Source: a virus (taxonomy: Duplodnaviria; Caudoviricetes). From it: DNA of 64,000 nucleotides. Position 1 is the first letter of the stretch. Each line of letters starts with the position of its first letter. The notes below the pieces were generated by a model, which was given only the letters and a program-made list of their open reading frames with translations, was not told the origin of the DNA and did no database searches. The translations under genes and the position numbers were made by a program. Positions 412 to 57,953 of the stretch are shown one piece after another. The stretch is taken from positions 1,290 through 65,289 of the IMG/VR virus record IMGVR_UViG_3300042924_005664; one strand, 5' to 3'.

Positions 412-1230
412 ATGCCCTCCATCCAAACAGCATCGATTCCAGTAACCTCATTCCCCAATGAGTTCGTGTCGCCATGGGGCAATGACGAACCGATTCCTTT
501 GTACTCATCGGTTCCTCTTAGGAGCCCAGTAGTTGGTTGCTTGCCTTGTGTGGTATGTGGCAATTCTAATACTAGGTATGAAATTATTGGATCCCCCAAC
601 GCAAATCCGATCACAGGTGATCGCGCTGGTGGAGACGGCGGAGGAGGCGGCGGCGTGGGAGGTGGCGGCGGCGGCGGGGGAGATGGAGTTGTCATCACCC
701 TACTCCCAAGTTCTCCTCCTCCATGTATCACGACAAATAAGCGATTCTTGGGGCCGGGGTCTGAACCTCAAGAGGGAATGATTATTGTAAATAGGTTTAT
801 CATTAACTTATCGGGCCTTGAGTTTTGCCCTTGTATAAACTTGGATGACCCATCTCTTCCCTGTAGTACCGAGTTTCAGGAATACTGGGATTATATTGTG
901 AGTAATTTATATTCAGAGCTTTCTAATCCGATTGTATTGGAATACATTCCCATCAATTCCCCAAATTACAGTCAAATAAGTGGTGATCCTTACTTTTGTA
1001 TTAATGGAGGAGATCAGATATTCCCGCCCAATGAGCCATTTTCGGTGCTTCCGATAATAGGAGGCGACGGCTTCCCGTGCTCTACCCCAATGTTCTTTAA
1101 CGGGCTATGCGTTACGTCAGAAACGGAAACAAGCATTACAGTTAGCAATAGCCAAACACTAGAAGCAGATTGCGGCCCACGCACTTTTCCTCTCGCGTAT
1201 GGAGGTTCAGTAACTATAACTTGGGAGTAA
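412..1230 (+). CDS. Cys/Pro/Gly-rich hypothetical protein, probably virion-associated
   Basis: 272 aa ORF, tight spacing to neighbours, CLPCVVC and FCPC motifs, poly-Gly linker. Confidence 0.6.
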   Translation: MPSIQTASIPVTSFPNEFVSPWGNDEPIPLYSSVPLRSPVVGCLPCVVCGNSNTRYEIIGSPNANPITGDRAGGDGGGGGGVGGGGGGGGDGVVITLLPSSPPPCITTNKRFLGPGSEPQEGMIIVNRFIINLSGLEFCPCINLDDPSLPCSTEFQEYWDYIVSNLYSELSNPIVLEYIPINSPNYSQISGDPYFCINGGDQIFPPNEPFSVLPIIGGDGFPCSTPMFFNGLCVTSETETSITVSNSQTLEADCGPRTFPLAYGGSVTITWE

Positions 1231-5247: not shown

Positions 5248-8200
5248 ATGGGATTTCTTGACGAACTGGATCAAAAATATGCTCAAGAGACCCCGAAGGA
5301 GGAACCGACTAAGCCTAGTGGTTTCTTGGGGGAGCTAGAGAGTAAGTACAAGGATGCTCCCGTAGAGCAGCCCAAGTCATTCCTAGAAGAGCTGGATCAG
5401 AAATATGACGTAAACCCAGACTCTCTACGCAATAGGCAATCTCGTGGAGAACCTCTTTCCATGGAGCAGGAGCGCATCGTATTTGATGCGAACCGAGCAC
5501 GTGGTCTTGGGGAACAAGCAGCTGCAGCTGGCAAGGGCGTCTATGCCAGCCTTAGCGAAATGGTTCCTCAAGCCTTCGAGGGAACCAAGAAAATCATGGG
5601 TGCAGGCAAAGACTTGGCAAAAGAAATTGGAATCAAGTACCTAGACGTCAATCCGCTTGTGCCTGAGATTGCGGTCAACTATATCGCTGGCAATACAGCA
5701 GAAGACCGAAAAGCTAATTTGGAAAAAGCTGCTAAGAGAGAAGCAGATATCGTCAGGTCATTAGCATCTGGAGCCGTTCAGGCTGGCGAAGAAGTAATCA
5801 ACGAAGCCGCACGTGGAGCTTTCTTTGGTACGCCCATTACAGATCTCGTTCAGGAATACCCAGCTGGCAAGTTGGCAGTTGAAGCCATGAAGGCGGGTGG
5901 CCCTGTAGCACTTGCCACTAAAGCACTTGGTGGAAAGATTTTCGGAGAGCCGCTGGTTGATCTGCAGCCGATCACAAAGGACGAATCGTTCCAGAGGTCG
6001 TTGAGTCGTGAGGACATGCGCCAGCAGGAGCAGCAGGAGTATAAAGATTTGCCAGAAAGAACTACCGCAGCGTTGGTAAAGCTAGCTGAAAGTTCCGCTG
6101 GATCTTTGCTTGGAAAATCTTTGGGAGTCCCTTCCGACGAGCAGTTCCAAAAGGACTTGGTTCAGGAGCTCAAGAATAACGCGATCGTCCCCGACGAAGA
6201 CGTTGCGTTGATGGGCAATATGTTGAGCCCGCTGGATCCTACCTTTGTCTTGGCTGGGCCGCTTGCAAGGGCATCCTCGAAGGTATTCGATGTAGCCTCA
6301 GAAGCTGGTCTTCGAGCGCTTACAAAGCCAACTATTGCTGGAATGAACCCCCTCGAAGCAACGGGACGGGTAATACGATTTAGTGGAGAGGGCGCACAGA
6401 ATGTTGCAAGAAAGTTCAGCGACTTTTTGACTGGGTCAGAAGACAGCTTCATCGGCAAGCTAGCGGATCCGATCGTGGCGGTGACTCGACGCCCCGGCAT
6501 AATGGTCGAGGGCGCAGGGCGGGCTCTCAGGGACGTCGGACGTCAGATCGACGACGTCGGAATCCGCTCCCGCACGGGCATCATCGAGCGGGCGGGGCAG
6601 GACGTACGTTCTGGGGATTTCATGCGGACGGTCTTCGGGGCTGGAACCGAGAAGGCTCAGGCCAAGGCACTCAAGGCGTCCGAAAAGCTAGCCGAGGAGG
6701 GCGTGGATACTGGCGCTTCCGCACCAGCGCTTTCCTCCAAGCGACGTGCAGCCGCGAGAACTGCGGACTGGGTATTCCGACAAGCCGAAGCCTTAGCGCG
6801 TTACGGCACAAGCGGAGCGGCCATCGGAACCGCGCTCGGACTGCCAGACATTGAGAACGCGGAGGCGCTTGGACAGATGGCTACTACTGGAGCCATGGTC
6901 GGAGCCATCGGAGGCGCGAGGCTCGGAGAGAAAGGCGCAAAGCTAATTGATCCTAGGGTTTCGCTTAAAGGAAAGATCGACGCCATCCTAGCCGACGATC
7001 CCGTATCAAGGCGTGCTGACGAGGACGCCGACATCGAGCGTTTCAGAAGTACTGCAGCACCAGACCTTATCAACAAGGCCAACGAATTTGGGAATATCAA
7101 TTCCGTTCTGCAATCTTTTGACGGCCACCTCCAGAATCTAGACTTTCAACGCGAGCAAGCGATTGCCCGTGGCGAGGCGGACGTCGCCGCTGGGATAGAG
7201 CTTGAAATTAAGAAGACTGCAGCCAGCAAGGACGCCGTTTCCAAGATGACTCCTGACGCCATGAAGGAGTACCAGCGCCGAGTGGACTTGACGCTAGCTG
7301 ACGCGCTAGACCAAGCAAAAACTACTGGCGAGGCGGTGGGTCTCAACAACATCGAGATCAAGCTGCTCTCCCCAGTCGAGATGTTGGGCTACCTTCGCGA
7401 CAAGTGGGGGACGACCCTAACGAATGCCGAGTACGTTCTCCAGTCACTGGCTGGCAACAATGATCTAAGCGATCAAGATCAGCAAAAACTTAATCAGGCG
7501 AGGGAGACTATCAACCAGTTCAACTACATGTATCAGACCGCGATGGGTCAGCGTGGATACGCCATGTCTGATAACACGTATTCAGATAGCCCCATGCATT
7601 TGCGTCCAGCAAATCTCAAGACTCCATCGGTTGTCATTAATTCCGAACTAGTCAAGAGCCAGCTCGGAAACAATCTGTACGGAACTCTGGTTCACGAAAC
7701 CAATCACGCACTTAGGAATTTCAAGGAAGTTAAATCCATGATGGCTCCCATTGAGGAGTACTTGTTTGGTAAGAAAGTTCAAAACGCTGATGGAAGCATC
7801 ACGGAGATTTCCAAAGGAATTTACGACGACGCGGCGATCGATCGCATGGGCGATTACTACGCGGAGCTTTTGGGCGGAGACAAGTGGAAGGCAGGATTCG
7901 CTACCGAGGGTCAGTATAGGAACTACATCAAGGAAGAGATTCTTGCGGAGGCCGCTGGCCTGTCCTCCAACACGGCAAACCTACGAGCTGACTTGGATTC
8001 ACCGGGTCAAGCCTTCATCGATTGGGCCGCTACCTCCAACAAGAATACCTTGATCGGAAAACTACGCGACGCACTCGGGCTGAAAGGAATCTTGCTAGAC
8101 GACTCAGGAAGAATCTCAGACGTTCTGGGAGAGACGATCTCACCAGAAGTTCTCGCGCTGACTCGTCAGTTCCAGCGCCAGCTCAGAGACTACAATGGAT

Positions 8201-11200
8201 CCTTGTCGCAAATTACTTCCGCCAGTGGGCCAGAAGTTACAATCTCAGCTCCTGAGTTGCTATCGAGCAAAATTCTTCAGAACAAGTATCGTGGGCTAGA
8301 CATCTGGCAAAAGGAACAGGTGCTCACGATCAAGGACGACGAAGGAAACGTGGTCAACGAGATCGTAGTGCCTCAGTCTGCGTCGCTCAACGCGCTCGTG
8401 GGTCAGTACCGCCTCGAAGATGGCATGCTTGTGGACGAGAACGGAAACAAGATGCAGATCGCTCCCGAGATCGCTGCAGCCAATCTCCCAAACAACACCA
8501 GTATTTCGGTAGACCAAAGAATTGCTAGGAACCCCGATGGGTCTCCAAGGATCCTATCGAATCGTGAGATTCAAGCACGTGCTAGAAAGCGCGCAGAAGT
8601 GCTGAAAAACGCCATCGAGGGCGCTATGGAGGATGGCTCAACAAACCGAGTCCGACCAGTCGGAGAAAACGAATACGCTGGAATCCTGAGCCCCACTCAG
8701 CTGCAGGCGATCTTGGAACTCCCCAACGACATCGTGGCTCCTGAGTTGAAGCGCAAGATCGCGGCCTTCAACGAGACGGCCCTACGCAAGGATGGAACGC
8801 GAATGATCGTCGAGTACCAAGCTGCGATGAAGGGCGGAAAGTACAAGGCGCTCGCACCCAAGATCCGAGACGTCGTTCCATTTGGGTTCCGCATCACAAA
8901 GGATGGCAACTTCCTAGCGACTACGATTTCTGTCAGCAGAATTTTCGACAAGATCAACGAATGGGCGAAGCCAAACAGGAACAGGCTGAACCTTTGGAAC
9001 GGCGACACCAACGCGTTGTGGGAAGACATTATCCACGTCCTGAAGAATCACCAGAAGGGCGAGCGCGGAGAAGTCGGACTCGACGTTGATCCAGACATGG
9101 CGGTTCTCAAGAAGAATCGAATCAACGACATCTTCAATCTCTTCGACAAGGCTACCGAGTCTAAGAATCCCGATCGTTCCGTAAGCAAGACGCGTAAGGG
9201 CCAAGACTCAATCGACCGCGTGATCATGGGAATGAGGATGGATCGTGTGAACGACTTCCAGATTTCAAACGCCCAGAAGATCCCCGTAGACTACGGCAAG
9301 ATCAAAGAAAACTACATGCCCAACGTGCCTGTGGACGTTGTTCAGAATAATGTTGCCGAGGAAGGCGGCTTAGGTTACAAAGAATCTCCAACCATCAAAT
9401 ATCGTGAACCAAAATACGAAACCACCAACCCCCCAAGACTGGGATACATCGATCCGCGAACTACAGCGGAAGGTCGAAGAGTCCTCAGCGAGAGTCCGAT
9501 CCTCGCGCAAGCATACGACGCCCTTGAAAGAGCGTCTGAGGCTGGCGGAGATCAGCGCCCAACTTCAGGGTCTTCGGTAATACCAGCTGAGACAGAAGCT
9601 CTTAGGGAGTTTGCAAATAGTTCGGGGGCCATGGAGTCTCCTGAAGCCGTCCAAAAATTCACTGATGATTGGAACGCAGAAAATAGAAATGCTGGAACTG
9701 AACATCAGGTTTTATTCGGCGATAAAGATCGGATAGAAAAGCGTTTCACAGCCACGTATGACGACACGTGGAAAAACTATCTCGATAGGATTTTGTTGCA
9801 CAATATCCTATTTAAAGATTCGGCGATTAAACTAGAGGGCTTTCAGGAAGTTCCTGAGAAAACACAGGATCGTAGTGGGAACGAGTGGAGCCCGGGGCTT
9901 TACGCCAAGATTTCTCAGCCCTACGCCGAAGGTCAACAGGTAGATCTCATAAAGGATCTCAAGCCGTACATGGAATCGTTGGGCTTCGTTTCTAATGGGC
10001 CGATGAATTATTACCACCCTGAATATGGCGTCCACGTATCGGATTTGCACCCGGGCAATGCATACGTAGAAATAGATGCACAAGGAAACAAGCACGTAAC
10101 CGTCTTTGATCCCGGCTTGCACATGACGGGCGAGAAAGAAGGTGACGCCAAGGAACGCGCCCGTGTTGAAGCCAAGTTGGCTGCTCAAAGACCCGTGGAG
10201 GACGTGGGTTTCAGCTGGCCGAAAGAGATTGATGACGCAATCGTTCGCGTGAGGTCGGTACTCGATAATCCAGACAACATGCCGACTCAGGTGAAGCCTG
10301 AAGCGCCGCTGCCCGTAAGCCTGTACGAGGCTGGTACTAGCTTGGAATCATTCGGGATCAATTCGCTCAAAGAAATTGCCGAGCACTATGGTTTCCCCAT
10401 CCCAGAGAAAGCAAAGCGCGGAGAGATCATCGACCTAGTTGAAAACAGGTCGTCTGACGTACAATTCAGGCCCGCAAACATCACTCGTGAAGTCGGAGCT
10501 AACGAAGACTTCATCACGATACCCGAAGAGGAAGCCGCTAGGTCTGCGCTGAACAGCAGCAAGCAGCCGAAGTTTGGGGCAGCTAGAGATCTCGAAGCTG
10601 GGTATCCCGTGGCGCTGCGAATCGACATCCCTGCGTTCAAGTCAACTGGAAACTACGTTGTGACGGTTCACGAGAAGGGAACCCCCAGCAAGGTTGGCGA
10701 GGTCATCGGGTACGACACCATTGCACGTATCGACAATCCCCAGTTCATGTCTAACGAGACTGGAGCGGAGAAGATTAAAAAAGGAGAGAGCAACAAGTTC
10801 CCGATTGCCACGGTGGCGGGAGAGTTCAACCCATCACGCGAGATGCCTGCAGATATCAACGACTGGACACCAGTCGGATTCGATCCTAGCGAGCACTCGT
10901 ACTTCTACGACAAGGCGACCGACGAGCTTGTGCTTGGCGGAGACGAGGCCGTGAGTGTTGGCAACACCGTCTTCGTTAAGAATCCAGTCTACGGCGATAA
11001 AGCCACAGCTAGGTTCATGCCAGCCGCTGGCGAGTCAAAGCCTGTCCCAACGCAGGAAGAGCTTGATGCGATGAAAGAAGGGTTGCCTCCATATCAAGCA
11101 AAAATTGGAGAGCTTTCCGAGGGGAGGTTTGGATTGAACCTGTATACTGACAATGGTTTGTATGTCGGAAACATAGAGGGTCAAATTAGAGAGTCTGATC

Positions 11201-14085
11201 CAAGTAAAGTGTATATCTATGATGCCGAAGTCATGCCTCAATATAAAAAACTAGGCTACGGACAAGCCTTGTATCGTGAGCTTGCAAAATATGCACAAGA
11301 CAATGGTGTGAAAACTATCTGGGGAAACCCCGTAAGCAAAGAAGCGGTAGCTGTTCGCAGGAAATTATTTGATACCTATACTGGGAAAGAAAACACGCTT
11401 GGCGGCTATAGTTATGCAGGAAGTAGGATTCCAAGCGACATCTCCTTCATGCCAGCAAGCAAGGGCGACTCGCCAGCCTCCAGCCTCTCCAAGGACGAGC
11501 GCGACACCGCAGTAAAGTTCCTCGAACGCGGAACACTAACCGCAGCCAACGTCTTCGACGCGCTCGCGAAGCTCGCCAACGGCGACATGCAGTCCATTAC
11601 CGAGAAGCTATCTACGGGACGCCTCTTCGAGCTCGCGCACCGCGCAACGGGCACTCCCATCCTGAACCGCGTCGATGCGATCTCCGCCATCCGCAACGAG
11701 ATCAATAGCCGCAAGGACGCAATGCCTCAGAGCAGCATTGCATCACCCATGGCCGACGACATCATCCGCACGCCAGTAAATCGTATGGCCGCGCAGGGCG
11801 CTCAATTCAAGCCCGCAACTAAAATTGAAGGGGCGGAAGAGATCGAAATAGCTCCCGGGTTCCAGAAAGCGCTAACTAAAGGCGGGAAGTGGGCTGTTTA
11901 TGCTTCCAATAATATATTAGCTACTGGAAAGCAATTCGATAGTCCTGAAGCTGCAGATGAAGCGGCTAAAATAATAGCTAACGCCAATGAACCACTTCAA
12001 GGAATCCCTTATTCCTTGCAAGAAGGACGCACTGGAAAGTGGAAGATTATCGACAAGAAGGGAGAAGCCGCAGCGTCCAAAACTTTTTCTAATCCTGCTG
12101 AAGCCGCAGAGTATGCCGTAGCATTGCATCGTGAATCATTGCCGCTTTCTGCAGTCAAAAAGTTGATGCCTAAAGCAGATAGAGATGCGGTTACTGAGGC
12201 TGAACAACGCATTGCTGACATGCAGGCTAAGAATCCTGAAGCAATGCCTCTGGTGGTGACTAGAGATGCTGATACTGGTCTTCCGAAGATTGATCTTTTA
12301 GAAGACGCAGAAGGCAATCCAGTTCTTGATGAAAAAGGCAAGCAGGTTCGTGGAGTGATCTTTAGTCAGGTTCCCTACAAGTTGCGTCAGTCTCCAATGC
12401 TTGATGCTAAAGACGACAATGTCGCAGTGCAGCAGGCAGCAGACTTAATGACTCCTGAAGTAGAAATAGCCATGGCGGATCCTTCGGTAGCCAAGGCTAT
12501 CGGATGGTACAAGAAAATGCGTCAGCAGCTGCAGCAATACTACGGCGCAAATATTGAGCTTTTCGGACAACTTCTCGGAGCTACTAGCGCACGTACTCCC
12601 GTTGATGAGAATTTCAAGCAGACTATTGAAGCTGCAAGACAATATTCTAAGGGAGCCTATGACGCTCTGCTTCAAAGATTCCATGAACATATTGTTAAGG
12701 CTACCGAAGATCTTGCTTCAGGTGCTTTACAAGCGAGTTGGGAGAAAAAGAATCCTACTAAAACTTGGAACCAAGAAAAAGATGGAGCGGACGCTCTCCG
12801 CATGGAGATCAATAAATTCAGTGAAGTTCCAGTCAGGTCTAACGGCAAAAAGTTCAATGCTAATTCCCAGAAAGTTCTGCACGCATTGTATGGGAATTGG
12901 TTGACTCAAACCGTAGGGCCGAAAACCCCCAATTTTGCTGGCAACCTCACGGGGCGCACTCTCAGAGCTACAATCGACGTTTGGGCCGCACGCAATCTTC
13001 GTCGTTTGCTTTACGACGATGGTTCTAGTCAGTGGCGTTTGCTCCCTGAACAAGAGAAAGGAGTAGACTCTGCTTACAATGCCAAAGGCGAGCTGACGGG
13101 AGATTTCCCGTTTGCCCAGAATGTGTACGACGAAGTTGCCAGTCGCGTTAATATGAACGCTGATGATTTGCAGGCTTTGATGTGGTTCTATGAAAAGGGA
13201 ATCTGGGATCAAAACGGATGGACTGGGGCACTTGGCGCTAAAAAGAGTTCCTTTGAAGAGGAGGCTGAAAAGCTGTCTCTTGATCGCTACCAAGCTGGAG
13301 TTACGGCTTACACGAACGAAGGCCAATATCCAAACCTAGAAGAATTCACTGCTGGGGTGCAGGAAAAAACCCGCAAGGAATTGCGTGATTCAATCGGCCA
13401 GCTTCCCGGTGTGGAAATCTCCAGAGTTACCCACACGGATGGACTCTATGGTGGGTCTGTAGAGCCTTCCTTGGACGTTGAATTTAGCGTTTCTCGGGAT
13501 AAGAACGGAAAACCCCAGTCGATTGCTTCCGTAATTGACAGGCTCAAGGCTATTGGAAAGGAACAAAATCAATACGATACGTTCATATCTCAGCTAGTAG
13601 ACAAAGAGCATCCGAATGCACGTCCGATGGTCGAGATAGGCTTTAAAAACGCCGCGAAACCAGAAGAAGTAGAGGCTGTTGTCAAAGCCTTCCGTGACGC
13701 TGGGATCGACGGCTTTACCCTAGCCAAGGACAGCAAAGGAAACGTGATCGGAATCCGCGCACAATACATCCCAGAGATATCTTCCCGTTGGGATGAAGAA
13801 GGCCGAACAGATCTCTTAGATCCAGAAAAACACGGCGAATCATCGCAGAATTGGGCGGATAAAGCTCGTCAAGCCATTAATTCCCTTGGCGATCAAGAGA
13901 ATGTGAGCTATAAGAATGAAGGATATGTCTCAACCCACGTTTATGGAAAAGAAGAATACGACGCAGAAACCAGCCCACAAGACCTTCTCGGAAGCGATGT
14001 CCGAGATCAATTGGGGAGAAGGAAACGAATCCTTGAAGCCCTTGCCGGGGAGGGACAGATACCTAGCGGGATCGGCTCGGACTGA
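5248..14085 (+). CDS. Giant polyvalent internal virion protein (zincin peptidase, kinase, HeH, GNAT, HhH-glycosylase-like domains)
   Basis: HETNH at ~7690; kinase GTEHQV...SDLHPGN...VFDP at ~9690-10115; GNAT QYKKLGYGQALY at ~11240; GWY...GPKTPNFAGNL...TIDVWAAR...LQALMW at ~12500-13190. Confidence 0.85.
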   Translation: MGFLDELDQKYAQETPKEEPTKPSGFLGELESKYKDAPVEQPKSFLEELDQKYDVNPDSLRNRQSRGEPLSMEQERIVFDANRARGLGEQAAAAGKGVYASLSEMVPQAFEGTKKIMGAGKDLAKEIGIKYLDVNPLVPEIAVNYIAGNTAEDRKANLEKAAKREADIVRSLASGAVQAGEEVINEAARGAFFGTPITDLVQEYPAGKLAVEAMKAGGPVALATKALGGKIFGEPLVDLQPITKDESFQRSLSREDMRQQEQQEYKDLPERTTAALVKLAESSAGSLLGKSLGVPSDEQFQKDLVQELKNNAIVPDEDVALMGNMLSPLDPTFVLAGPLARASSKVFDVASEAGLRALTKPTIAGMNPLEATGRVIRFSGEGAQNVARKFSDFLTGSEDSFIGKLADPIVAVTRRPGIMVEGAGRALRDVGRQIDDVGIRSRTGIIERAGQDVRSGDFMRTVFGAGTEKAQAKALKASEKLAEEGVDTGASAPALSSKRRAAARTADWVFRQAEALARYGTSGAAIGTALGLPDIENAEALGQMATTGAMVGAIGGARLGEKGAKLIDPRVSLKGKIDAILADDPVSRRADEDADIERFRSTAAPDLINKANEFGNINSVLQSFDGHLQNLDFQREQAIARGEADVAAGIELEIKKTAASKDAVSKMTPDAMKEYQRRVDLTLADALDQAKTTGEAVGLNNIEIKLLSPVEMLGYLRDKWGTTLTNAEYVLQSLAGNNDLSDQDQQKLNQARETINQFNYMYQTAMGQRGYAMSDNTYSDSPMHLRPANLKTPSVVINSELVKSQLGNNLYGTLVHETNHALRNFKEVKSMMAPIEEYLFGKKVQNADGSITEISKGIYDDAAIDRMGDYYAELLGGDKWKAGFATEGQYRNYIKEEILAEAAGLSSNTANLRADLDSPGQAFIDWAATSNKNTLIGKLRDALGLKGILLDDSGRISDVLGETISPEVLALTRQFQRQLRDYNGSLSQITSASGPEVTISAPELLSSKILQNKYRGLDIWQKEQVLTIKDDEGNVVNEIVVPQSASLNALVGQYRLEDGMLVDENGNKMQIAPEIAAANLPNNTSISVDQRIARNPDGSPRILSNREIQARARKRAEVLKNAIEGAMEDGSTNRVRPVGENEYAGILSPTQLQAILELPNDIVAPELKRKIAAFNETALRKDGTRMIVEYQAAMKGGKYKALAPKIRDVVPFGFRITKDGNFLATTISVSRIFDKINEWAKPNRNRLNLWNGDTNALWEDIIHVLKNHQKGERGEVGLDVDPDMAVLKKNRINDIFNLFDKATESKNPDRSVSKTRKGQDSIDRVIMGMRMDRVNDFQISNAQKIPVDYGKIKENYMPNVPVDVVQNNVAEEGGLGYKESPTIKYREPKYETTNPPRLGYIDPRTTAEGRRVLSESPILAQAYDALERASEAGGDQRPTSGSSVIPAETEALREFANSSGAMESPEAVQKFTDDWNAENRNAGTEHQVLFGDKDRIEKRFTATYDDTWKNYLDRILLHNILFKDSAIKLEGFQEVPEKTQDRSGNEWSPGLYAKISQPYAEGQQVDLIKDLKPYMESLGFVSNGPMNYYHPEYGVHVSDLHPGNAYVEIDAQGNKHVTVFDPGLHMTGEKEGDAKERARVEAKLAAQRPVEDVGFSWPKEIDDAIVRVRSVLDNPDNMPTQVKPEAPLPVSLYEAGTSLESFGINSLKEIAEHYGFPIPEKAKRGEIIDLVENRSSDVQFRPANITREVGANEDFITIPEEEAARSALNSSKQPKFGAARDLEAGYPVALRIDIPAFKSTGNYVVTVHEKGTPSKVGEVIGYDTIARIDNPQFMSNETGAEKIKKGESNKFPIATVAGEFNPSREMPADINDWTPVGFDPSEHSYFYDKATDELVLGGDEAVSVGNTVFVKNPVYGDKATARFMPAAGESKPVPTQEELDAMKEGLPPYQAKIGELSEGRFGLNLYTDNGLYVGNIEGQIRESDPSKVYIYDAEVMPQYKKLGYGQALYRELAKYAQDNGVKTIWGNPVSKEAVAVRRKLFDTYTGKENTLGGYSYAGSRIPSDISFMPASKGDSPASSLSKDERDTAVKFLERGTLTAANVFDALAKLANGDMQSITEKLSTGRLFELAHRATGTPILNRVDAISAIRNEINSRKDAMPQSSIASPMADDIIRTPVNRMAAQGAQFKPATKIEGAEEIEIAPGFQKALTKGGKWAVYASNNILATGKQFDSPEAADEAAKIIANANEPLQGIPYSLQEGRTGKWKIIDKKGEAAASKTFSNPAEAAEYAVALHRESLPLSAVKKLMPKADRDAVTEAEQRIADMQAKNPEAMPLVVTRDADTGLPKIDLLEDAEGNPVLDEKGKQVRGVIFSQVPYKLRQSPMLDAKDDNVAVQQAADLMTPEVEIAMADPSVAKAIGWYKKMRQQLQQYYGANIELFGQLLGATSARTPVDENFKQTIEAARQYSKGAYDALLQRFHEHIVKATEDLASGALQASWEKKNPTKTWNQEKDGADALRMEINKFSEVPVRSNGKKFNANSQKVLHALYGNWLTQTVGPKTPNFAGNLTGRTLRATIDVWAARNLRRLLYDDGSSQWRLLPEQEKGVDSAYNAKGELTGDFPFAQNVYDEVASRVNMNADDLQALMWFYEKGIWDQNGWTGALGAKKSSFEEEAEKLSLDRYQAGVTAYTNEGQYPNLEEFTAGVQEKTRKELRDSIGQLPGVEISRVTHTDGLYGGSVEPSLDVEFSVSRDKNGKPQSIASVIDRLKAIGKEQNQYDTFISQLVDKEHPNARPMVEIGFKNAAKPEEVEAVVKAFRDAGIDGFTLAKDSKGNVIGIRAQYIPEISSRWDEEGRTDLLDPEKHGESSQNWADKARQAINSLGDQENVSYKNEGYVSTHVYGKEEYDAETSPQDLLGSDVRDQLGRRKRILEALAGEGQIPSGIGSD
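9353..9381 (+). promoter_or_regulatory. Internal sigma70-like promoter inside giant gene
   Basis: TTGCCG-N17-TACAAA, almost the same as intergenic TTGCCA-N17-TACAAA at 41527. Confidence 0.55.
9404..9580 (+). CDS. Nested +1-frame 58-aa protein (candidate antidote to kinase domain)
   Basis: GTG AAC start as in the early genes, A/C-rich leader, promoter upstream; MNQNTKPPTPQDWDTSIRELQRKVEESSARVRSSRKHTTPLKERLRLAEISAQLQGLR. Confidence 0.55.
   Translation: MNQNTKPPTPQDWDTSIRELQRKVEESSARVRSSRKHTTPLKERLRLAEISAQLQGLR
13886..13914 (+). promoter_or_regulatory. Internal sigma70-like promoter near 3' end of giant gene
   Basis: TTGGCG-N17-TATAAG. Confidence 0.55.
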
Positions 14086-14157: not shown

Positions 14158-14301
14158 ATGCCACTCAAATACTGCGCCTCCCAAAATTGCTTTGAACGCA
14201 ACATCGCCTCAGAAGTTCGTTCTGGCAAACCTGTAAAACAAGCTGTTGCCATCGCGTATAGCGTCAAACGTAAGGCCCAAGCAAAAGCTAGGAAAAAATA
14301 G
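14158..14301 (+). CDS. Small basic phage protein (DUF6496-like)
   Basis: MPLKYCASQNCFERNIASEVRSGKPVKQAVAIAYSVKRKAQAKARKK; KQAVAIA motif. Confidence 0.8.
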   Translation: MPLKYCASQNCFERNIASEVRSGKPVKQAVAIAYSVKRKAQAKARKK

Positions 14302-14311
14302 TCGCGTTCAA

Positions 14312-14938
14312 ATGCGAATCGAAATCAAGGCAGTTGATCCGATCGCACTGCGCGAAAAATCGGCGTGGCTAAAGGACGGCTCGCTGCAGGTTCTTGTTCC
14401 AGATTACGGAAGGAATCACGATGGCGCGTTTCTAGTTGGATTGTATGAATTGGTAAAAGCGTGGCAGTGCCACAAGGCACACATCCCCGAGGGGGCAGTT
14501 AAGCTCAAACAAGAAATCGTTGCAGCCGAGGTCGAGAGGCACGTTGCAGACGCACTCGAAATTGATTGGGAGCAGCACGAAAAGTGGGTCGAGAATTCGT
14601 ATGACGAAGTCGCTCGTAGTAGTGCAATAGAAGCTCCAAGAATTTTACTTCAAGGCCCTCGTGCTTGGGCCGAGCTGCACATCTTTGCATTACGTCATGA
14701 AGCAATGCGTCAGGGCGTCAGTGAAGCAAGTTGGTTTGAGAATTGGGTATCGGATCTCCCCTTCGATGGCTGTCCCTGCAAGGGACACCTGCACGAATTT
14801 CTCGCGCACAATCCGCCAGACTGGGACAAGTTTTTTGCGTGGTCGGTGAACCTGCACAACGCGGTGAATGCTCGTATTGGAAAACTCACGATCGGCGTCG
14901 AGCAGGCGCGTGAGCTTTGGTCTTCGAGGTTGTTCTAG
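14312..14938 (+). CDS. Erv1/Alr-like FAD sulfhydryl oxidase domain fused to a degenerate zincin-like N-terminal domain
   Basis: GPRAWAELH...LPFDGCPCKGH...FFAWSVNLHNAVNARIGK. Confidence 0.75.
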   Translation: MRIEIKAVDPIALREKSAWLKDGSLQVLVPDYGRNHDGAFLVGLYELVKAWQCHKAHIPEGAVKLKQEIVAAEVERHVADALEIDWEQHEKWVENSYDEVARSSAIEAPRILLQGPRAWAELHIFALRHEAMRQGVSEASWFENWVSDLPFDGCPCKGHLHEFLAHNPPDWDKFFAWSVNLHNAVNARIGKLTIGVEQARELWSSRLF

Positions 14939-14951
14939 CTCCTAGAGCTAG

Positions 14952-15052
14952 TGTTTATGCGGGTCAAAATAATTAAAACTTTTTGTTGCGTACCGAAGCG
15001 GAATAGGCAATACTCACTCCAGTCAGTAACAACACAACCAACCAAAGGAACC
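14952..15052 (+). promoter_or_regulatory. Early promoter cassette copy 1
   Basis: AT-rich UP element, TTGCGT-N17-AATACT, spacer CCGAAGCGGAAT, CACTCCAGTCAGTAAC. Confidence 0.75.
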
Positions 15053-15059
15053 TAATCCA

Positions 15060-15461
15060 GTGAACACACAACTACCAGTCCTCAACCAGCTCGTCATCAA
15101 GGCGCTCGAAGTCATCGGGCACCCAGCATCGATCGCCGAGATCTGCAACGAGATCGAGCGTCAGGGAAATTACTTCTCCCGCAAGCACCCCCGTCAGGAG
15201 CTGTATGTCCGCATCGGAAAGTTCCACGGCATCCGCAAGATCAGCACGGCCACCTACGCTCTCGACGAGCCCGCAGAGGTTTACGTCGAGTACGTCGGCC
15301 AGCGTGAGGGCGAGGAGCCATTCGAGCTCAACGGCCAGCGGTGGCAGTACGTCAACGTCCTCAACGGGCAGGGCAAGCGCGACATCGGAGTCTACAGCTT
15401 CGGAGAAGACCGCTGCTACGACTACAGCATCTGGCGCAGCCGCGAGCTCGCCATCAACTAA
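15060..15461 (+). CDS. Early protein with HARE-HTH-like winged helix
   Basis: ALEVIGHPASIAEICNEIERQG...KISTATYAL pattern; GTG start after AAGGA. Confidence 0.6.
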   Translation: MNTQLPVLNQLVIKALEVIGHPASIAEICNEIERQGNYFSRKHPRQELYVRIGKFHGIRKISTATYALDEPAEVYVEYVGQREGEEPFELNGQRWQYVNVLNGQGKRDIGVYSFGEDRCYDYSIWRSRELAIN

Positions 15462-15492
15462 TCAACCTCAACCAACCAAGGAGACCAAACCA

Positions 15493-16215
15493 GTGAACCA
15501 CATCATCAGCACACCAGCAGTCACACGAGTCTACAGCGACGCAGGACGCGGCGCAGCCGACAAGGCGCACAGCGACACGAACTCCTGCACCGTCAACGCT
15601 CTCGCCAATACCACGGGCTGGGAGTGGAACCTCTGCCACGACATCGCGGCAGAGTCGGGACGCAAGCGCGGCAAGGGCCACGACCCCATCAAGCTGCTAA
15701 AGCACGCGGGGCACTACGGCGTCAAGAGTCGTCGTCTTACAAGGATCAAGCGAAGCAACTCGTGGACGGTTCAAAAGTTCATCAAGAAAAACCCCACGGG
15801 GAAATTCTACGTCTGCTCATCGCGTCACGCGTTTGCAATCGTTGACGGCGTCGTCAAGGACTGGCTGCACAACGGCGACCTCGTGCGAATCGTTCAGGCG
15901 TGGCGCATCCTCGACTCGGTCTACAACAACCGCAAGGTGGTCGTGCCAGTGCACAAGCCGAAGCCACGGCCTGCAGCACGTGGAAAGCGCGTCGAGTACA
16001 GCGTGCGTCCTAGGGACAAGTACGGCGACGCACATGACGTGTGGTACTGCGACTCCAGAGCGCAGGCGCTGAAGCTCGCAAGAGAATTCAAACTGGACGA
16101 GGAAACACCGAGCATCGATGTCGAGCGCTGCACGATTGATCGCTACGACTGGACGACGGTCTTCAAGAAGACGCTGAAAGATGGCGTCGTACATGTTGAC
16201 TGCGGAGCCGCATAA
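15493..16215 (+). CDS. Early protein, papain-like Cys peptidase fold candidate
   Basis: NSCTVNALANTTG...HAFAIVDGVVKD putative Cys-His-Asp; GTG start after AAGGAG. Confidence 0.6.
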   Translation: MNHIISTPAVTRVYSDAGRGAADKAHSDTNSCTVNALANTTGWEWNLCHDIAAESGRKRGKGHDPIKLLKHAGHYGVKSRRLTRIKRSNSWTVQKFIKKNPTGKFYVCSSRHAFAIVDGVVKDWLHNGDLVRIVQAWRILDSVYNNRKVVVPVHKPKPRPAARGKRVEYSVRPRDKYGDAHDVWYCDSRAQALKLAREFKLDEETPSIDVERCTIDRYDWTTVFKKTLKDGVVHVDCGAA

Positions 16216-41352: not shown

Positions 41353-41426
41353 CGCGCGGTAGTGAAGAAGCCTCACGTTGCTTTCATACGGCAAAAACTC
41401 TGGTGCAATTCCAGACCGCGCCACCA
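41353..41426 (+). tRNA. tRNA with CAT anticodon (Met/fMet-like, atypical)
   Basis: CGCGCGG/CCGCGCC acceptor with C1:C72 mismatch, GTGA/TCAC, TTGCT-TTCATAC-GGCAA, TCTGG-TGCAATT-CCAGA, encoded CCA. Confidence 0.75.
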
Positions 41427-41441
41427 AATAAAATTCAATTT

Positions 41442-41515
41442 TACCCTTTGGTGTAACGGTAGCACAGATCGCTTTGACCGATCTAGTCATGGTTCAAATC
41501 CATGAGGGGTAGCCA
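41442..41515 (+). tRNA. tRNA-Gln(TTG)
   Basis: TACCCTT/AGGGGTA acceptor, GATCG-CTTTGAC-CGATC, CATGG-TTCAAAT-CCATG, encoded CCA. Confidence 0.92.
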
Positions 41516-54041: not shown

Positions 54042-54220
54042 TGAGCAACGGCGGAACAACTTCAGACGTAGGGCCGACTAGCGCAATCGTCTCGCTTGTT
54101 TCGCTTGTGGTATCTTTCTTCGACTCAACCCATGTGTGGTTGCAAAACACCACCCTGCTTGTTTCCTTGCTGGCTGGTTGCCTAGCAATTGTTGCAGGAA
54201 TCAAGAAGCTAATCAAATGA
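54041..54220 (+). CDS. Small 2-TM holin/antiholin-like protein
   Basis: 59 aa, two hydrophobic segments, basic tail; coupled at both ends. Confidence 0.65.
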   Translation: MSNGGTTSDVGPTSAIVSLVSLVVSFFDSTHVWLQNTTLLVSLLAGCLAIVAGIKKLIK

Positions 54221-54585
54221 ACAAAATCCTTATTGTTTGTGCGTCAGCACTTCTTATTGGATGTGCATCAGAGGAGCCTGTAAAGTACACTCCTCCTTCC
54301 GTTGTTGCGGTTAAGTCTGGTATTGAACGGCTCAAGCCGCACGTTACAAACACCGCAGGAAATGCGGCGATTAAAGAGCTAATCACCGCAGTCGATACCT
54401 ACGAAGCTCAAGTTGACCAGCAAGCAAGGGATCTGGCCAAGGCTCAAAACGATGCTTCATACTGGCACGCAAAACAAATCAAGGCACTTAAAGAGTTGTG
54501 GACTTGGCGAATTATTACAATTTCTGGCATTTTGTGTGTAGTGGTTTATGTGGGGATTAAAACTGCTTGGAAGTTTCGTCCATGA
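54217..54585 (+). CDS. Lipoprotein with C-terminal TM (unimolecular spanin architecture)
   Basis: Lipobox LLIG-C; C-terminal IITISGILCVVVYVGI; within lysis cassette. Confidence 0.7.
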   Translation: MNKILIVCASALLIGCASEEPVKYTPPSVVAVKSGIERLKPHVTNTAGNAAIKELITAVDTYEAQVDQQARDLAKAQNDASYWHAKQIKALKELWTWRIITISGILCVVVYVGIKTAWKFRP

Positions 54586-56570: not shown

Positions 56571-57953
56571 ATGAGCTGCGATTGTAATTCTACCAACGGC
56601 AATGTGTACGGGCAGGTGTGCCGACAAGACATCCCCTACCCCAATATTTCGCACGAGTCTGTTCCATCGATGATGGACAACCTGATTACCGCTTTGTACG
56701 GGGTTTTCACAAAGTCAATTGTCGATGGCCGAGTCGTTTGGAATATCCCTTGCGATCCAGTCACTTCTCCCGGTGAGATTTCTTGGCTACCCCGCGAAGA
56801 GGGTGAAGGATTCCTCTGCTACATGCTTCGTGCGTTTAACGCGGTGTTCCCAGCTACGGTCACTCTCACTGGAGTTCAGACCCTCACCAACAAAACGCTG
56901 ATCTCTCCGATCCTCACTACTCCTACTGGAATCCTCGCCTCTGATATTGGTGCTGGAGCTTTCGGAGGATCAGTTACTCTTGCAGCCACTCAACTCACGG
57001 GGACTGTTCCGAACAATCGCACGACGGCTACCAATCTTTCAACTCCATCAACAATTGTTCTTCGTGATGGCTCTGGAGATTTTGCTGCAGGAACTATTTC
57101 CGCTGATCTCATTGGAGATGTTACGGGAACGATTATTGGAAACGTCACTGGGAACGTCACTGGAAACGTCACTGGAAACCTTACGGGGTCAGTTTCTGGA
57201 AACGCTACAACTGCAACTCAAGCAGTGTTGGCTACCAATCTCTTTGGTGGCGCTACTGGATCCCTTCCCTATCAGTCTTCTGCTAGCAACTCCACAACTC
57301 TCCCAATTGGAAGCTCTAGTCAAATTCTAACCGTAAATAGTGGTGCCACTGCGCCACAATGGACTACTCCTTCCTCTATTGTGGTCGGAACTGCAACCAA
57401 CATTGCCGCAGGTGCTACTGGATCCATCCCGTACCAATCTGCTTCTGGAACTACTGCGTTCCTTGCTGCTGGAGCCACTGGCAGAATTCTCACCCAAAAT
57501 GCTGGGTCTCCACAATGGTCTATTGACCATATCGGAACTGCCAGCAACGACTCCGCAGCTACAGGATATGTTGGGGAATACGTTTTCAGTCAAAATACAG
57601 CTGGAACTTCTATGACCCAGAATGTTGTGACAAACATCACTTCAATCACACTATCCGCTGGTGACTGGGATGTTTCAAGCAATGTAAACCTTACCTACAC
57701 GACAACGAACAGTACTACCTTTACATTGCAGGGTGGCATTACCACGACATCCGCAACCCTTGGAGCACTAGACACCTATTCTCAATTTGTTGTTCATGCT
57801 GGAAATGCGGCGGCTCAAACTCAAATTTTTGCCTCACCGGAAGTTCGTCTATCACTATCAACAAGCACAATTGTTTATTTGATTGGGTTTGCTAATGGAG
57901 GATTGAGCTCAATTACAGGAAGAGGAACAATCCGAGCCCGCAGAGCCCGTTAA
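56571..57953 (+). CDS. Tail fibre protein
   Basis: QTLTNKTL, GNVT repeats, duplicated GATGS.PYQS knob, GDWDV C-terminal domain. Confidence 0.85.
   Translation: MSCDCNSTNGNVYGQVCRQDIPYPNISHESVPSMMDNLITALYGVFTKSIVDGRVVWNIPCDPVTSPGEISWLPREEGEGFLCYMLRAFNAVFPATVTLTGVQTLTNKTLISPILTTPTGILASDIGAGAFGGSVTLAATQLTGTVPNNRTTATNLSTPSTIVLRDGSGDFAAGTISADLIGDVTGTIIGNVTGNVTGNVTGNLTGSVSGNATTATQAVLATNLFGGATGSLPYQSSASNSTTLPIGSSSQILTVNSGATAPQWTTPSSIVVGTATNIAAGATGSIPYQSASGTTAFLAAGATGRILTQNAGSPQWSIDHIGTASNDSAATGYVGEYVFSQNTAGTSMTQNVVTNITSITLSAGDWDVSSNVNLTYTTTNSTTFTLQGGITTTSATLGALDTYSQFVVHAGNAAAQTQIFASPEVRLSLSTSTIVYLIGFANGGLSSITGRGTIRARRAR

What the first reader, a model, noticed from the sequence alone, without database searches (positions are those of the whole stretch)
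14312..14938. Erv1/Alr-like sulfhydryl oxidase in a bacteriophage with Cys-rich virion proteins
Seen: W...H, C-P-C..H and W....HN.VN.RIGK, the FAD-binding Erv signature, with CxC in place of canonical CxxC. Known: Erv/ALR enzymes are typical of eukaryotes and their large DNA viruses (poxvirus E10R, ASFV B119L, baculovirus P33), where they form cytoplasmic disulfides in virion proteins. Seen: the capsid has 8 Cys, the fibre N-terminus has 5, ORFs 412, 1235 and 42764 are Cys-rich, and the 14158 peptide has two Cys. Inference: a phage-encoded cytoplasmic disulfide pathway for virion assembly.
Basis: partly seen in the sequence, partly recalled or inferred. Interest (0 to 1): 0.8.

Follow-up and report, generated by a model that had tools for sequence, protein, structure and literature searches.

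The report
Phage Erv-type thiol oxidase, CPC site
An uncultured lake phage carries a real relative of the flavin enzymes that eukaryotes and giant viruses use to make disulfide bonds, with an unusual Cys-Pro-Cys active site, but close relatives lacking the gene keep the same cysteine-rich particle proteins, so its target is still open.

Summary
ORF 14312-14938 (208 aa) has a C-terminal Erv1/ALR domain. It passes Pfam PF04777 (28.9 bits, cut-off 27.6). The family profile hits ASFV pB119L at E 4.8e-13, and the fold match is Z 13.4. The FAD-site motifs are intact. An invariant Cys-Pro-Cys replaces CxxC in 19 of 19 aligned relatives. The gene is under purifying selection, is predicted to form a homodimer, and is not an assembly artefact.

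New here: the N-terminal half belongs to a separate, widespread phage family of unknown function (HExxE, weakly zincin-like). In this lineage that half has lost its conserved His and about 20 residues. The ~430-aa gene coupled to it in 24 of 35 relatives is absent.

In 11 of 16 additional near-complete relatives there was no Erv match. The eight of these analysed in full keep the same conserved capsid, portal and fibre cysteines.

Best reading: an accessory, O2-dependent thiol oxidase acting in the cytoplasm late in infection, with no identified substrate.

A 2026 paper states that no disulfide-forming machinery is described in phages. This scan has already noted phage Erv genes on other DNA (42 notes, at least 38 genomes), including this CPC fusion family.

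The parts
14312..14938 (+). Whole gene: 208-aa two-domain protein (decayed HExxE-family N-domain plus Erv/ALR domain)
   Evidence: ORF and translation. 32 homologues among 163 candidates, 30 of them with precomputed PF04777. dN/dS 0.14 and 0.23 against two relatives.
14312..14626 (+). N-terminal domain (residues 1 to about 105): member of a widespread phage family of unknown function, decayed in this lineage
   Evidence: The family profile finds 1518 cluster representatives at E<=1e-10. 137 of the 150 listed match this part only. There is no Pfam or PHROG match. The family invariants are H48, E52, D70, Y87, H91 and E98. The window has Y in place of the His and lacks about 20 residues that include D70 and Y87. 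Fold matches to zincin-type metallohydrolases are weak, at Z 4.2-5.2. The part is still under purifying selection, dN/dS 0.12-0.27.
14633..14935 (+). Erv/ALR FAD-binding helical bundle (residues about 108-208)
   Evidence: Pfam 118-203. Fold matches: pB119L Z 13.4, rmsd 2.4 over 96 residues; Erv1 Z 12.7; Erv2 Z 12.0; mimivirus R596 Z 11.6; the next entry is Z 6.3. Foldseek TM 0.70 normalised to pB119L.
14771..14788 (+). C154-P155-C156-K-G-H159: putative redox-active pair in place of CxxC
   Evidence: Invariant in 19 of 19 aligned relatives down to 41% identity. C156 aligns with the second Cys of pB119L and ALR CxxC. Of 9 further representatives with an Erv part, 7 have CPC, 1 has CSC and 1 has no Cys pair.
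14158..14301 (+). Upstream 47-aa basic peptide with CxxxxC (phrog_2423). It is a conserved neighbour and is not shown to be a partner.
   Evidence: PHROG E 2e-16. It lies upstream of Erv in 13 of 35 loci. It is also present, with its Cys pair, in 5 of 8 Erv-less genomes.
5248..14085 (+). Giant 2945-aa polyvalent virion protein with no cysteine. It is the upstream gene of the same transcription unit and cannot be a substrate.
   Evidence: 0 Cys. Kinase-PolyVal, GNAT and DUF7178 domains. Homologues lie upstream of Erv in 23 of 35 loci.
14932..14961 (+). Terminator-like hairpin overlapping the stop codon (weak evidence)
   Evidence: Two overlapping terminator-like sites were found in the scanned 1.5 kb, against 1.8 expected by chance.

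Best explanation
The C-terminal half of this late phage gene is a true homologue of the Erv/ALR FAD-linked sulfhydryl oxidases. It most likely still works as one.

Proposed mechanism (inferred): a homodimeric helical bundle holds FAD. The C154-P-C156 pair at the start of helix 3 takes electrons from substrate thiols, with C156 next to the flavin and C154 as the exchange cysteine. FAD passes the electrons to O2, giving H2O2. The protein has no signal peptide and is co-oriented with the virion operon, so it would act in the host cytoplasm late in infection.

The domain is an accessory module. Its lineage has shed the ~430-aa partner gene and the metal ligands of the fused HExxE domain but kept the Erv domain intact. 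Close relatives do without Erv altogether. Its substrate is not identified. Phage late proteins remain the leading guess, with Erv as an accelerator rather than a requirement.

Shown: homology, fold, motif conservation, selection, synteny and distribution. Inferred: FAD binding, catalysis, cytoplasmic site and timing.
For: - **Homology.** Pfam PF04777 is over its cut-off in the window and in 10 of 10 relatives searched. The profile against PDB gives pB119L at 4.8e-13, then ALR, AtErv1 and Erv1.
- **Fold.** The top six matches are all Erv enzymes at Z 11.6-13.4, followed by a drop to 6.3.
- **Invariant residues.** W119, H123, P150, C154, P155, C156, H159, W177, H182, N183, V185, N186 and R188 are invariant in 19 of 19 sequences. 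They align to the conserved positions of solved Erv enzymes.
- **Dimer.** The homodimer with FAD riding along scores 0.70 against a best control of 0.01. That mark was reached by 20 of 30 solved pairs and 1 of 23 single chains. The runs agree in 100% of contacts and the partner pLDDT is at least 89. The interface uses helices 116-133 and 141-148. The pass may stem from likeness to solved Erv dimers.
- **Selection.** dN/dS of the Erv part is 0.14-0.18.
- **Persistence.** The Erv domain persists without the ~430-aa gene and with a decayed N-domain.
- **Position.** It is the last gene after the giant virion protein in 23 of 35 loci.
- **Recalled, not from a call.** Yeast Erv1p expressed in the E. 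coli cytoplasm makes disulfides there (the CyDisCo system). CxC disulfides are redox-active in Mia40 (CPC) and in the Erv2 tail (CGC).
Against: - The canonical CxxC spacing, a hallmark of every characterised Erv enzyme, is not present. No CxC flavin-proximal pair has been characterised as far as I know (recalled), so catalysis is unproven.
- FAD binding was not tested. The ligand only rode along and was not scored.
- One relative (P0038) has lost the Cys pair while keeping the fold, so non-catalytic forms exist.
- 11 of 16 additional near-complete relatives lack the gene, with unchanged virion cysteines. No substrate can therefore be named.
- No thioredoxin-type CxxC partner was seen in the window by motif scan.
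- No RNA evidence is available.
Confidence: 0.6

Rival explanations
1. One reading: the oxidase is a dedicated cytoplasmic disulfide pathway for virion assembly. It would cross-link the capsid (8 Cys), the fibre N-terminus and other Cys-rich structural proteins, as poxvirus E10R and ASFV pB119L do.
For: The gene ends the virion operon. Six capsid cysteines are invariant over 80 loci at 74-99% identity, which suggests a structural role. Whole-proteome Cys is slightly higher in Erv-bearing genomes: 1.28% against 1.16% without the giant protein, Mann-Whitney p 0.04, n 11 against 8. The precedent in large DNA viruses is recalled; passages of PMC10598087 and PMC13576161 were read.
Against: The eight Erv-less relatives analysed in full keep the same capsid, portal and ORF42764 cysteines, and three have fibres with 21-27 Cys. 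The sister genome G002 lost the Erv domain with no drop in Cys. The proteome difference rests on essentially two Erv-less lineages, so it is not independent. ORF1235, ORF42764 and Endonuclease VII carry paired CxxC motifs typical of zinc sites. The giant protein has no Cys at all, with or without Erv.
Confidence: 0.25
2. The Erv domain is one arm of a three-part module: a ~430-aa ATP-grasp-like ligase, an HExxE metal domain and the Erv domain. The module would make or process a thiol-bearing small molecule or peptide, with Erv oxidising the product. The window would hold only a remnant of it.
For: In 24 of 35 loci the ~430-aa gene lies directly upstream, with start and stop overlapping the fusion gene. 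The ~430-aa gene tracks the N-domain: it is present in the N-only genomes G002 and G003 and absent from all 8 Erv-less genomes. Domain fusion usually marks a shared pathway. Earlier scan notes call the ~430-aa protein PurD-like; that was not verified here.
Against: The two halves are separable in both directions. N-only lineages keep the ligase without Erv. This lineage keeps an intact, selected Erv domain without the ligase and without the HExxE ligands. Stand-alone Erv-only forms exist: P0040, P0044 and P0145. phmmer of the ~430-aa protein against PDB gave nothing below E 0.42.
Confidence: 0.15
3. Host redox take-over: the oxidase drains host thioredoxin, glutaredoxin or low-molecular-weight thiols, or makes H2O2. 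This would disable host functions or defences. It might be delivered or act alongside the polyvalent effector protein next to it.
For: It is adjacent to, and co-oriented with, a polyvalent protein carrying kinase and GNAT effector-type domains. Its patchy, accessory distribution is typical of counter-defence genes.
Against: There is no direct evidence. The gene sits at the late end of the operon, not in the early region that starts after 14952 (first-stage note, untested). No packaging signal or fusion to the giant protein was seen in any of 35 loci.
Confidence: 0.1
4. Non-redox relic: the bundle has lost catalysis, and C-P-C-x-x-H is a metal site or purely structural.
For: The CxxC spacing is lost. 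CPC is also a metal-binding motif in heavy-metal P-type ATPases (recalled). One relative lacks the pair entirely.
Against: All flavin-pocket positions that align with solved enzymes are invariant. That would be unnecessary for a metal site. The CxC pair is kept in 27 of 28 relatives inspected.
Confidence: 0.1

Closest known systems
ASFV pB119L (PDB 3GWL), a minimal viral Erv sulfhydryl oxidase
   Same: It is the best sequence and fold match: profile E 4.8e-13; Z 13.4, rmsd 2.4 over 96 of 102 residues; 24-26% identity. It is a compact single bundle with no shuttle disulfide of its own. The W..H, C..H and W....HN.VN motifs are shared.
   Different: pB119L has CxxC (C-T-R-C), whereas this family has C-P-C after a two-residue longer loop. 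The predicted dimer here uses helices 1 and 2, as I recall for cellular Erv enzymes, whereas pB119L was described with a shifted interface (recalled from the title of Hakim and Fass 2009, cited in PMC13576161; the paper itself was not read). The host is a bacterium, and the domain is fused to an N-terminal domain.
Cellular Erv1/ALR and Erv2 (PDB 4E0I, 3W4Y, 3O55, 1JR8)
   Same: Same fold, Z 12.0-12.7. Same Pfam family, and a homodimer is predicted. From recall, Erv2 also uses a CxC (C-G-C) disulfide, but as a distal shuttle.
   Different: These enzymes have a flavin-proximal CxxC plus a second shuttle pair. They act in the mitochondrial intermembrane space or the ER, with Mia40 or PDI as partners. 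Here the only cysteines are C53, C154 and C156.
Mimivirus R596 (PDB 3TD7)
   Same: An Erv domain fused to an unrelated extra domain in a virus, Z 11.6 (passages of PMC3509050 read).
   Different: The R596 extra domain is C-terminal and an ORFan. Here the extra domain is N-terminal and belongs to a very large phage family. R596 keeps CxxC.
Poxvirus E10R-A2.5L-G4L pathway
   Same: The concept is the same: a virus-encoded cytoplasmic oxidase (recalled; Senkevich 2002 is cited in PMC13576161).
   Different: No thioredoxin-like or A2.5L-like partner could be tied to Erv here. The neighbouring two-Cys peptide occurs equally in Erv-less phages.

Membership tests
Erv/ALR (Pfam PF04777, Evr1_Alr) | Significant match to the family profile over its curated cut-off | tested here: met
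   28.9 bits against 27.6. 30.6 bits in the six-frame search. 10 of 10 relatives are over the cut-off. 30 of 32 homologue clusters carry the family.
Erv/ALR (Pfam PF04777, Evr1_Alr) | Four-helix bundle plus fifth helix that cradles FAD | tested here: met
   AF2 model pLDDT 82.8, with helices 110-132, 138-148, 156-166, 171-189 and 196-204. Z 13.4 to 3GWL, and six Erv entries at Z 11.6 or more, followed by a gap to 6.3.
Erv/ALR (Pfam PF04777, Evr1_Alr) | Conserved flavin-pocket residues (W..H on helix 1; H after the Cys pair; W....HN.VN...K on helices 4 and 5) | tested here: met
   All are present and invariant in 19 of 19 sequences and align to the same columns of pB119L, ALR and AtErv1. That these residues contact FAD is recalled.
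Erv/ALR (Pfam PF04777, Evr1_Alr) | Flavin-proximal redox-active CxxC at the start of helix 3 | tested here: not met
   The spacing is C-P-C (C154, C156). C156 aligns with the second Cys, and the first Cys is one residue closer. A Cys pair at the site is kept in 27 of 28 relatives inspected. I therefore file this as a homologous variant, not as a proven EC 1.8.3.2 enzyme.
Erv/ALR (Pfam PF04777, Evr1_Alr) | Homodimer | tested here: met
   Score 0.70 against a best control of 0.01. The mark was reached by 20 of 30 solved pairs and 1 of 23 single chains. Contacts agree 100% and pLDDT is at least 89. This is a prediction only and may reflect likeness to solved Erv dimers.
Erv/ALR (Pfam PF04777, Evr1_Alr) | Bound FAD and O2-dependent thiol oxidase activity | not testable with these tools
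   This needs purified protein. FAD rode along but was not scored.
Virus-encoded virion disulfide pathway (poxvirus or ASFV type) | The oxidase is required for, or co-varies with, disulfide-bonded virion proteins | tested here: not met
   Erv-less relatives keep the same capsid, portal and fibre cysteines.
Virus-encoded virion disulfide pathway (poxvirus or ASFV type) | Dedicated thiol-disulfide relay partners encoded alongside | tested here: inconclusive
   The motif scan found no thioredoxin-type site. The two-Cys peptide is not Erv-specific. Most window ORFs have no family assignment.
Zincin-like metallohydrolases (N-terminal domain) | HExxH-type metal site on a beta-sheet plus helix fold | tested here: inconclusive
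   The family motif is HExxE plus D, Y, H and E. Fold matches reach only Z 4.2-5.2: selecase, YbeY, PprI, abylysin and CapP. Atlas leads are M78 at 0.81 and SprT-like at 0.78. In the window the His is replaced by Tyr.

The most novel reading that the evidence does not exclude
Tailed phages of lake bacteria carry a natural equivalent of the engineered cytoplasmic disulfide system: a self-sufficient Erv oxidase whose flavin-proximal pair is a strained Cys-Pro-Cys, a new catalytic variant of the family. It would generate disulfides de novo in the reducing bacterial cytoplasm, and its fusion to an HExxE domain coupled to an ATP-grasp gene in relatives would mark an undescribed phage pathway acting on a thiol-bearing target.
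Probability: 0.4. Interest if true: 0.8.

Novelty: new variant of a known kind. Interest (0 to 1): 0.6.

Why it matters
De novo disulfide formation in the bacterial cytoplasm is thought not to occur naturally. [quoted passage not shown]

If this phage Erv enzyme is active, three things would follow.
- It would show that phages can bring their own oxidant.
- It would extend the Erv family to prokaryotic viruses, which bears on where the giant-virus oxidases came from, since pB119L is the nearest solved relative.
- It would supply a compact CxC-type oxidase for protein engineering.

The negative covariation result matters as well. It warns against reading every Cys-rich phage protein next to an Erv gene as its substrate.

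Tried and rejected
- **Cultured phages and PHROGs.** tblastn against 50,697 deposited phage records gave 1 hit, a giant virus (Mollyvirus), over 23% of the query. PHROGs gave only a 0.02 hit to the N-terminal part. This shows absence from those collections, not absence from phages.
- **Foldseek against PDB.** No match reached E<=0.001, although ranks 1-12 were all Erv enzymes. VIA-align resolved this.
- **The 47-aa peptide as a dedicated partner.** Rejected as unsupported. It is phrog_2423, it occurs in Erv-less genomes, and it lacks Cys in L005. I ran no further search on it.
- **The ~430-aa protein.** There is no Pfam or PHROG family and no PDB sequence hit below E 0.42. The 'PurD-like' label from earlier notes was not verified.
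- **N-domain profile against PDB sequences.** 0 hits at E<=1.
- **Genes that track Erv.** Clustering 21 genomes found only clade markers (for example ORF 38714) and the ~430-aa gene. No Cys-rich family was specific to Erv-bearing genomes.
- **Proteome Cys difference.** Considered and set aside as phylogenetically confounded.
- **Tree.** The careful search did not finish in 288 s, so the quick tree was used. G004, G010, G014, G001, G019 and G022 were left out of the whole-genome comparison because they were not fetched in full.
- **Expression.** No RNA holder was listed for the stretch.
- **Terminator and promoter scans.** No better than chance.
- **Contig gaps.** In run X4 no contig covers 14977-15003; run X5 bridges 14802-15044 and 15027-15224.
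- **Literature.** Five searches found no paper describing a phage Erv: 'sulfhydryl oxidase' + Erv + bacteriophage; PF04777 + phage; 'sulfhydryl oxidase' + phage + metagenom + Erv1; 'sulfhydryl oxidase' + Caudovir; Evr1_Alr. Only passages of four papers were read. Supplements were not opened and could hold Pfam tables listing PF04777 in phage genomes.

Full report
**What is there.**
- The frame 14312-14938 (+) encodes 208 residues starting MRIEIK. Homologues share this start, so the upstream TTG at 14246 is not the start.
- The window is bases 1290-65289 of a 65,289-bp IMG/VR virus record that CheckV rates 100% complete.
- Nearly all long ORFs are on the + strand, and there are two tRNA genes.
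- It is a tailed phage. It has a terminase large subunit (phrog_2), tail-fibre and baseplate-type matches, and a capsid candidate whose nearest Atlas clusters include N4-gp56-type capsid families at 0.97.
- It also carries a 2945-aa polyvalent protein with Kinase-PolyVal and GNAT domains.
- Runs that hold the stretch are lake-water metagenomes.

**The Erv domain is real.**
- Pfam Evr1_Alr matches residues 118-203 at 28.9 bits against a cut-off of 27.6.
- phmmer against PDB gives ASFV pB119L at 1.7e-6, followed by AtErv1 and ALR.
- A profile of 19 relatives raises pB119L to 4.8e-13 and ALR to 2.7e-6.
- The AlphaFold model (pLDDT 82.8) matches pB119L at Z 13.4 (rmsd 2.4, 96 residues), yeast Erv1 at 12.7, Erv2 at 12.0 and mimivirus R596 at 11.6. 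The next entries fall to 6.3 (QSOX) and lower.
- Foldseek ranks the same enzymes first, but none reaches E<=0.001.
- Across 19 relatives down to 41% identity, these residues are invariant: W119, A120, E121, L122, H123, P150, F151, C154, P155, C156, H159, W177, H182, N183, V185, N186 and R188.
- The gene is under purifying selection: dN/dS 0.14 and 0.23 overall, and 0.14-0.18 for the Erv part.

**The active site is a variant.**
- HMMER aligns C156 with the second cysteine of CxxC in pB119L and ALR, keeping the C-x-x-H register of pB119L.
- The partner cysteine is at i-2, not i-3, after a loop two residues longer.
- The protein has only three cysteines: C53, C154 and C156.
- Nine further cluster representatives have an Erv part. 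Seven have CPC, one has CSC and one has lost the pair.
- The family hallmark is therefore CxC. From recall, CxC disulfides are redox-active in Mia40 and in the Erv2 tail, but I know of no Erv enzyme with CxC next to the flavin.

**Quaternary structure.** Two copies of residues 105-208, with FAD riding along, score 0.70 against a best control of 0.01.
- That mark was reached by 20 of 30 solved pairs and 1 of 23 single chains.
- The runs agree in 100% of contacts, and the partner pLDDT is at least 89.
- The interface lies on helices 116-133 and 141-148.
- This supports binding but does not show it, and it may reflect likeness to solved Erv dimers.

**The N-terminal half is a different domain.**
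- The profile search over 1.84 billion representatives found 4437 proteins at E<=1e-3 and 1518 at E<=1e-10.
- Only 13 of the 150 listed cover the Erv part. The rest are 100-200-aa proteins matching positions 1 to about 130.
- These proteins have no Pfam or PHROG family, and two are fused to HNH nucleases.
- Their invariant residues are H48, E52, D70, Y87, H91 and E98 in P0015 numbering, with a nearly invariant Cys.
- Atlas neighbours are phage hypothetical proteins. The nearest named ones are M78 at 0.81 and SprT-like at 0.78.
- Fold matches for both models are weak, at Z 4.2-5.2: selecase, YbeY, PprI, abylysin and CapP.
- In the window and its three nearest relatives the His is Y or R, and about 20 residues carrying D70 and Y87 are missing.
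- A lake run holds a relative about 90-95% identical in the flanks. Its loose ends read as the intact motif and the missing segment, so the decay is recent.

**Context in relatives.**
- 35 IMG/VR loci encode the fusion.
- In 23 of them a giant-protein homologue lies upstream. The 47-aa peptide lies upstream in 13.
- In 24 a conserved ~430-aa protein (6-10 Cys) directly precedes the fusion gene, often with overlapping stop and start.
- That gene is absent from the window (best tblastn E 0.26).
- It tracks the N-domain. It is present in N-only genomes G002 and G003 and absent from 8 of 8 Erv-less genomes.

**Testing the virion-cysteine inference.**
- I searched 16 additional near-complete relatives whose capsids are 78-98% identical. 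One has the full fusion, one has an Erv domain with a short N-part, three have the N-domain only and 11 have nothing.
- Six of the eight capsid cysteines are kept in all 80 capsid loci. In one locus position 43 is not covered.
- Orthologue Cys counts in 11 Erv-bearing, 2 N-only and 8 Erv-less genomes:

| Protein | Erv-bearing | N-only | Erv-less |
|---|---|---|---|
| Capsid | 6-9 | 7 | 7-8 |
| Portal | 7-8 | 8 | 5-7 |
| ORF42764 | 8-15 | 9-11 | 8-9 |
| Scaffold | 0 | 0 | 0 |

- Three Erv-less genomes have fibres with 21-27 Cys.
- The giant protein is Cys-free in both groups: 0-3 Cys in 17 loci, and 0,0,0,0,0,1,0,0 in Erv-less genomes of 2835-4269 aa.
- A quick tree needs at least four changes of state. 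Erv-bearing genomes are paraphyletic, and the N-only genome G002 is sister to the window's clade.
- Proteome Cys is slightly higher with Erv (1.28% against 1.16%, p 0.04). The Erv-less set is essentially two lineages, so this is not independent.

**Conclusion.** The gene encodes a genuine, maintained Erv-fold flavoprotein domain with a CxC site. It is most likely an accessory cytoplasmic thiol oxidase.
- Its link to the Cys-rich virion proteins is possible but not supported.
- Its ancestral link to the HExxE and ~430-aa module is real but dispensable in this lineage.
- Within this scan the kind has been noted before on other DNA: 42 notes in at least 38 genomes, including this CPC fusion family.

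Noticed in passing
window 5248-14085, and giant genes in L004-L035 and G006-G016: The 2945-aa polyvalent virion protein has no cysteine at all. Homologues of 2000-4269 aa in 25 relatives have 0-3 Cys, whether or not Erv is present. This is strong, lineage-wide avoidance of Cys in the ejected protein.
   Followed up: partly
L017:8630-9946, L029:8740-10011 and 22 further loci; absent from the window: A conserved ~430-aa protein (50-55% identity across the group, 6-10 Cys, no Pfam or PHROG family) is translationally coupled to the HExxE or HExxE-Erv gene. Earlier scan notes call it PurD-like ATP-grasp, which was not verified here.
   Followed up: partly
window 14158-14301: The 47-aa basic peptide of phrog_2423 is more conserved than Erv itself (57-97% identity where Erv is 44-86%). 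It has a CxxxxC pair in most copies but not all.
   Followed up: partly
window 412-1230: This 272-aa ORF has 11 Cys, including CxxCxxC and its own CPC, plus a poly-Gly tract. Only the first 60 or so residues (3 Cys) are conserved in relatives, which often encode it as an ~80-aa protein.
   Followed up: partly
G006, G007 and G008 fibre genes (homologous to window 56571-57953 over the first ~90 residues): Erv-less relatives carry fibres of 1089-1366 aa with 21-27 cysteines on the same conserved N-terminal anchor.
   Followed up: no
L019 and L025 (one 66-kb record); L020 and L024 (one 94-kb record): Two different Erv fusion genes (44% and 43% identical to the query) lie in single records. One of them sits at the record's end. 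This could be a concatemer or co-assembly of two related phages, or a true second copy.
   Followed up: no
window 15060-15461 and 15205-16215: Two long + strand ORFs overlap by about 250 nt in different frames. The 336-aa one begins with a Ser/Thr/Ala-rich stretch that may be a spurious extension.
   Followed up: no
window 54136-54585: This 149-aa protein has a lipoprotein-like N-terminus and a C-terminal hydrophobic helix, which suggests a possible spanin-type lysis protein in the tail region.
   Followed up: no
window 41353-41515: tRNA-Met (CAT) and tRNA-Gln (TTG) genes lie just after the terminase gene.
   Followed up: no
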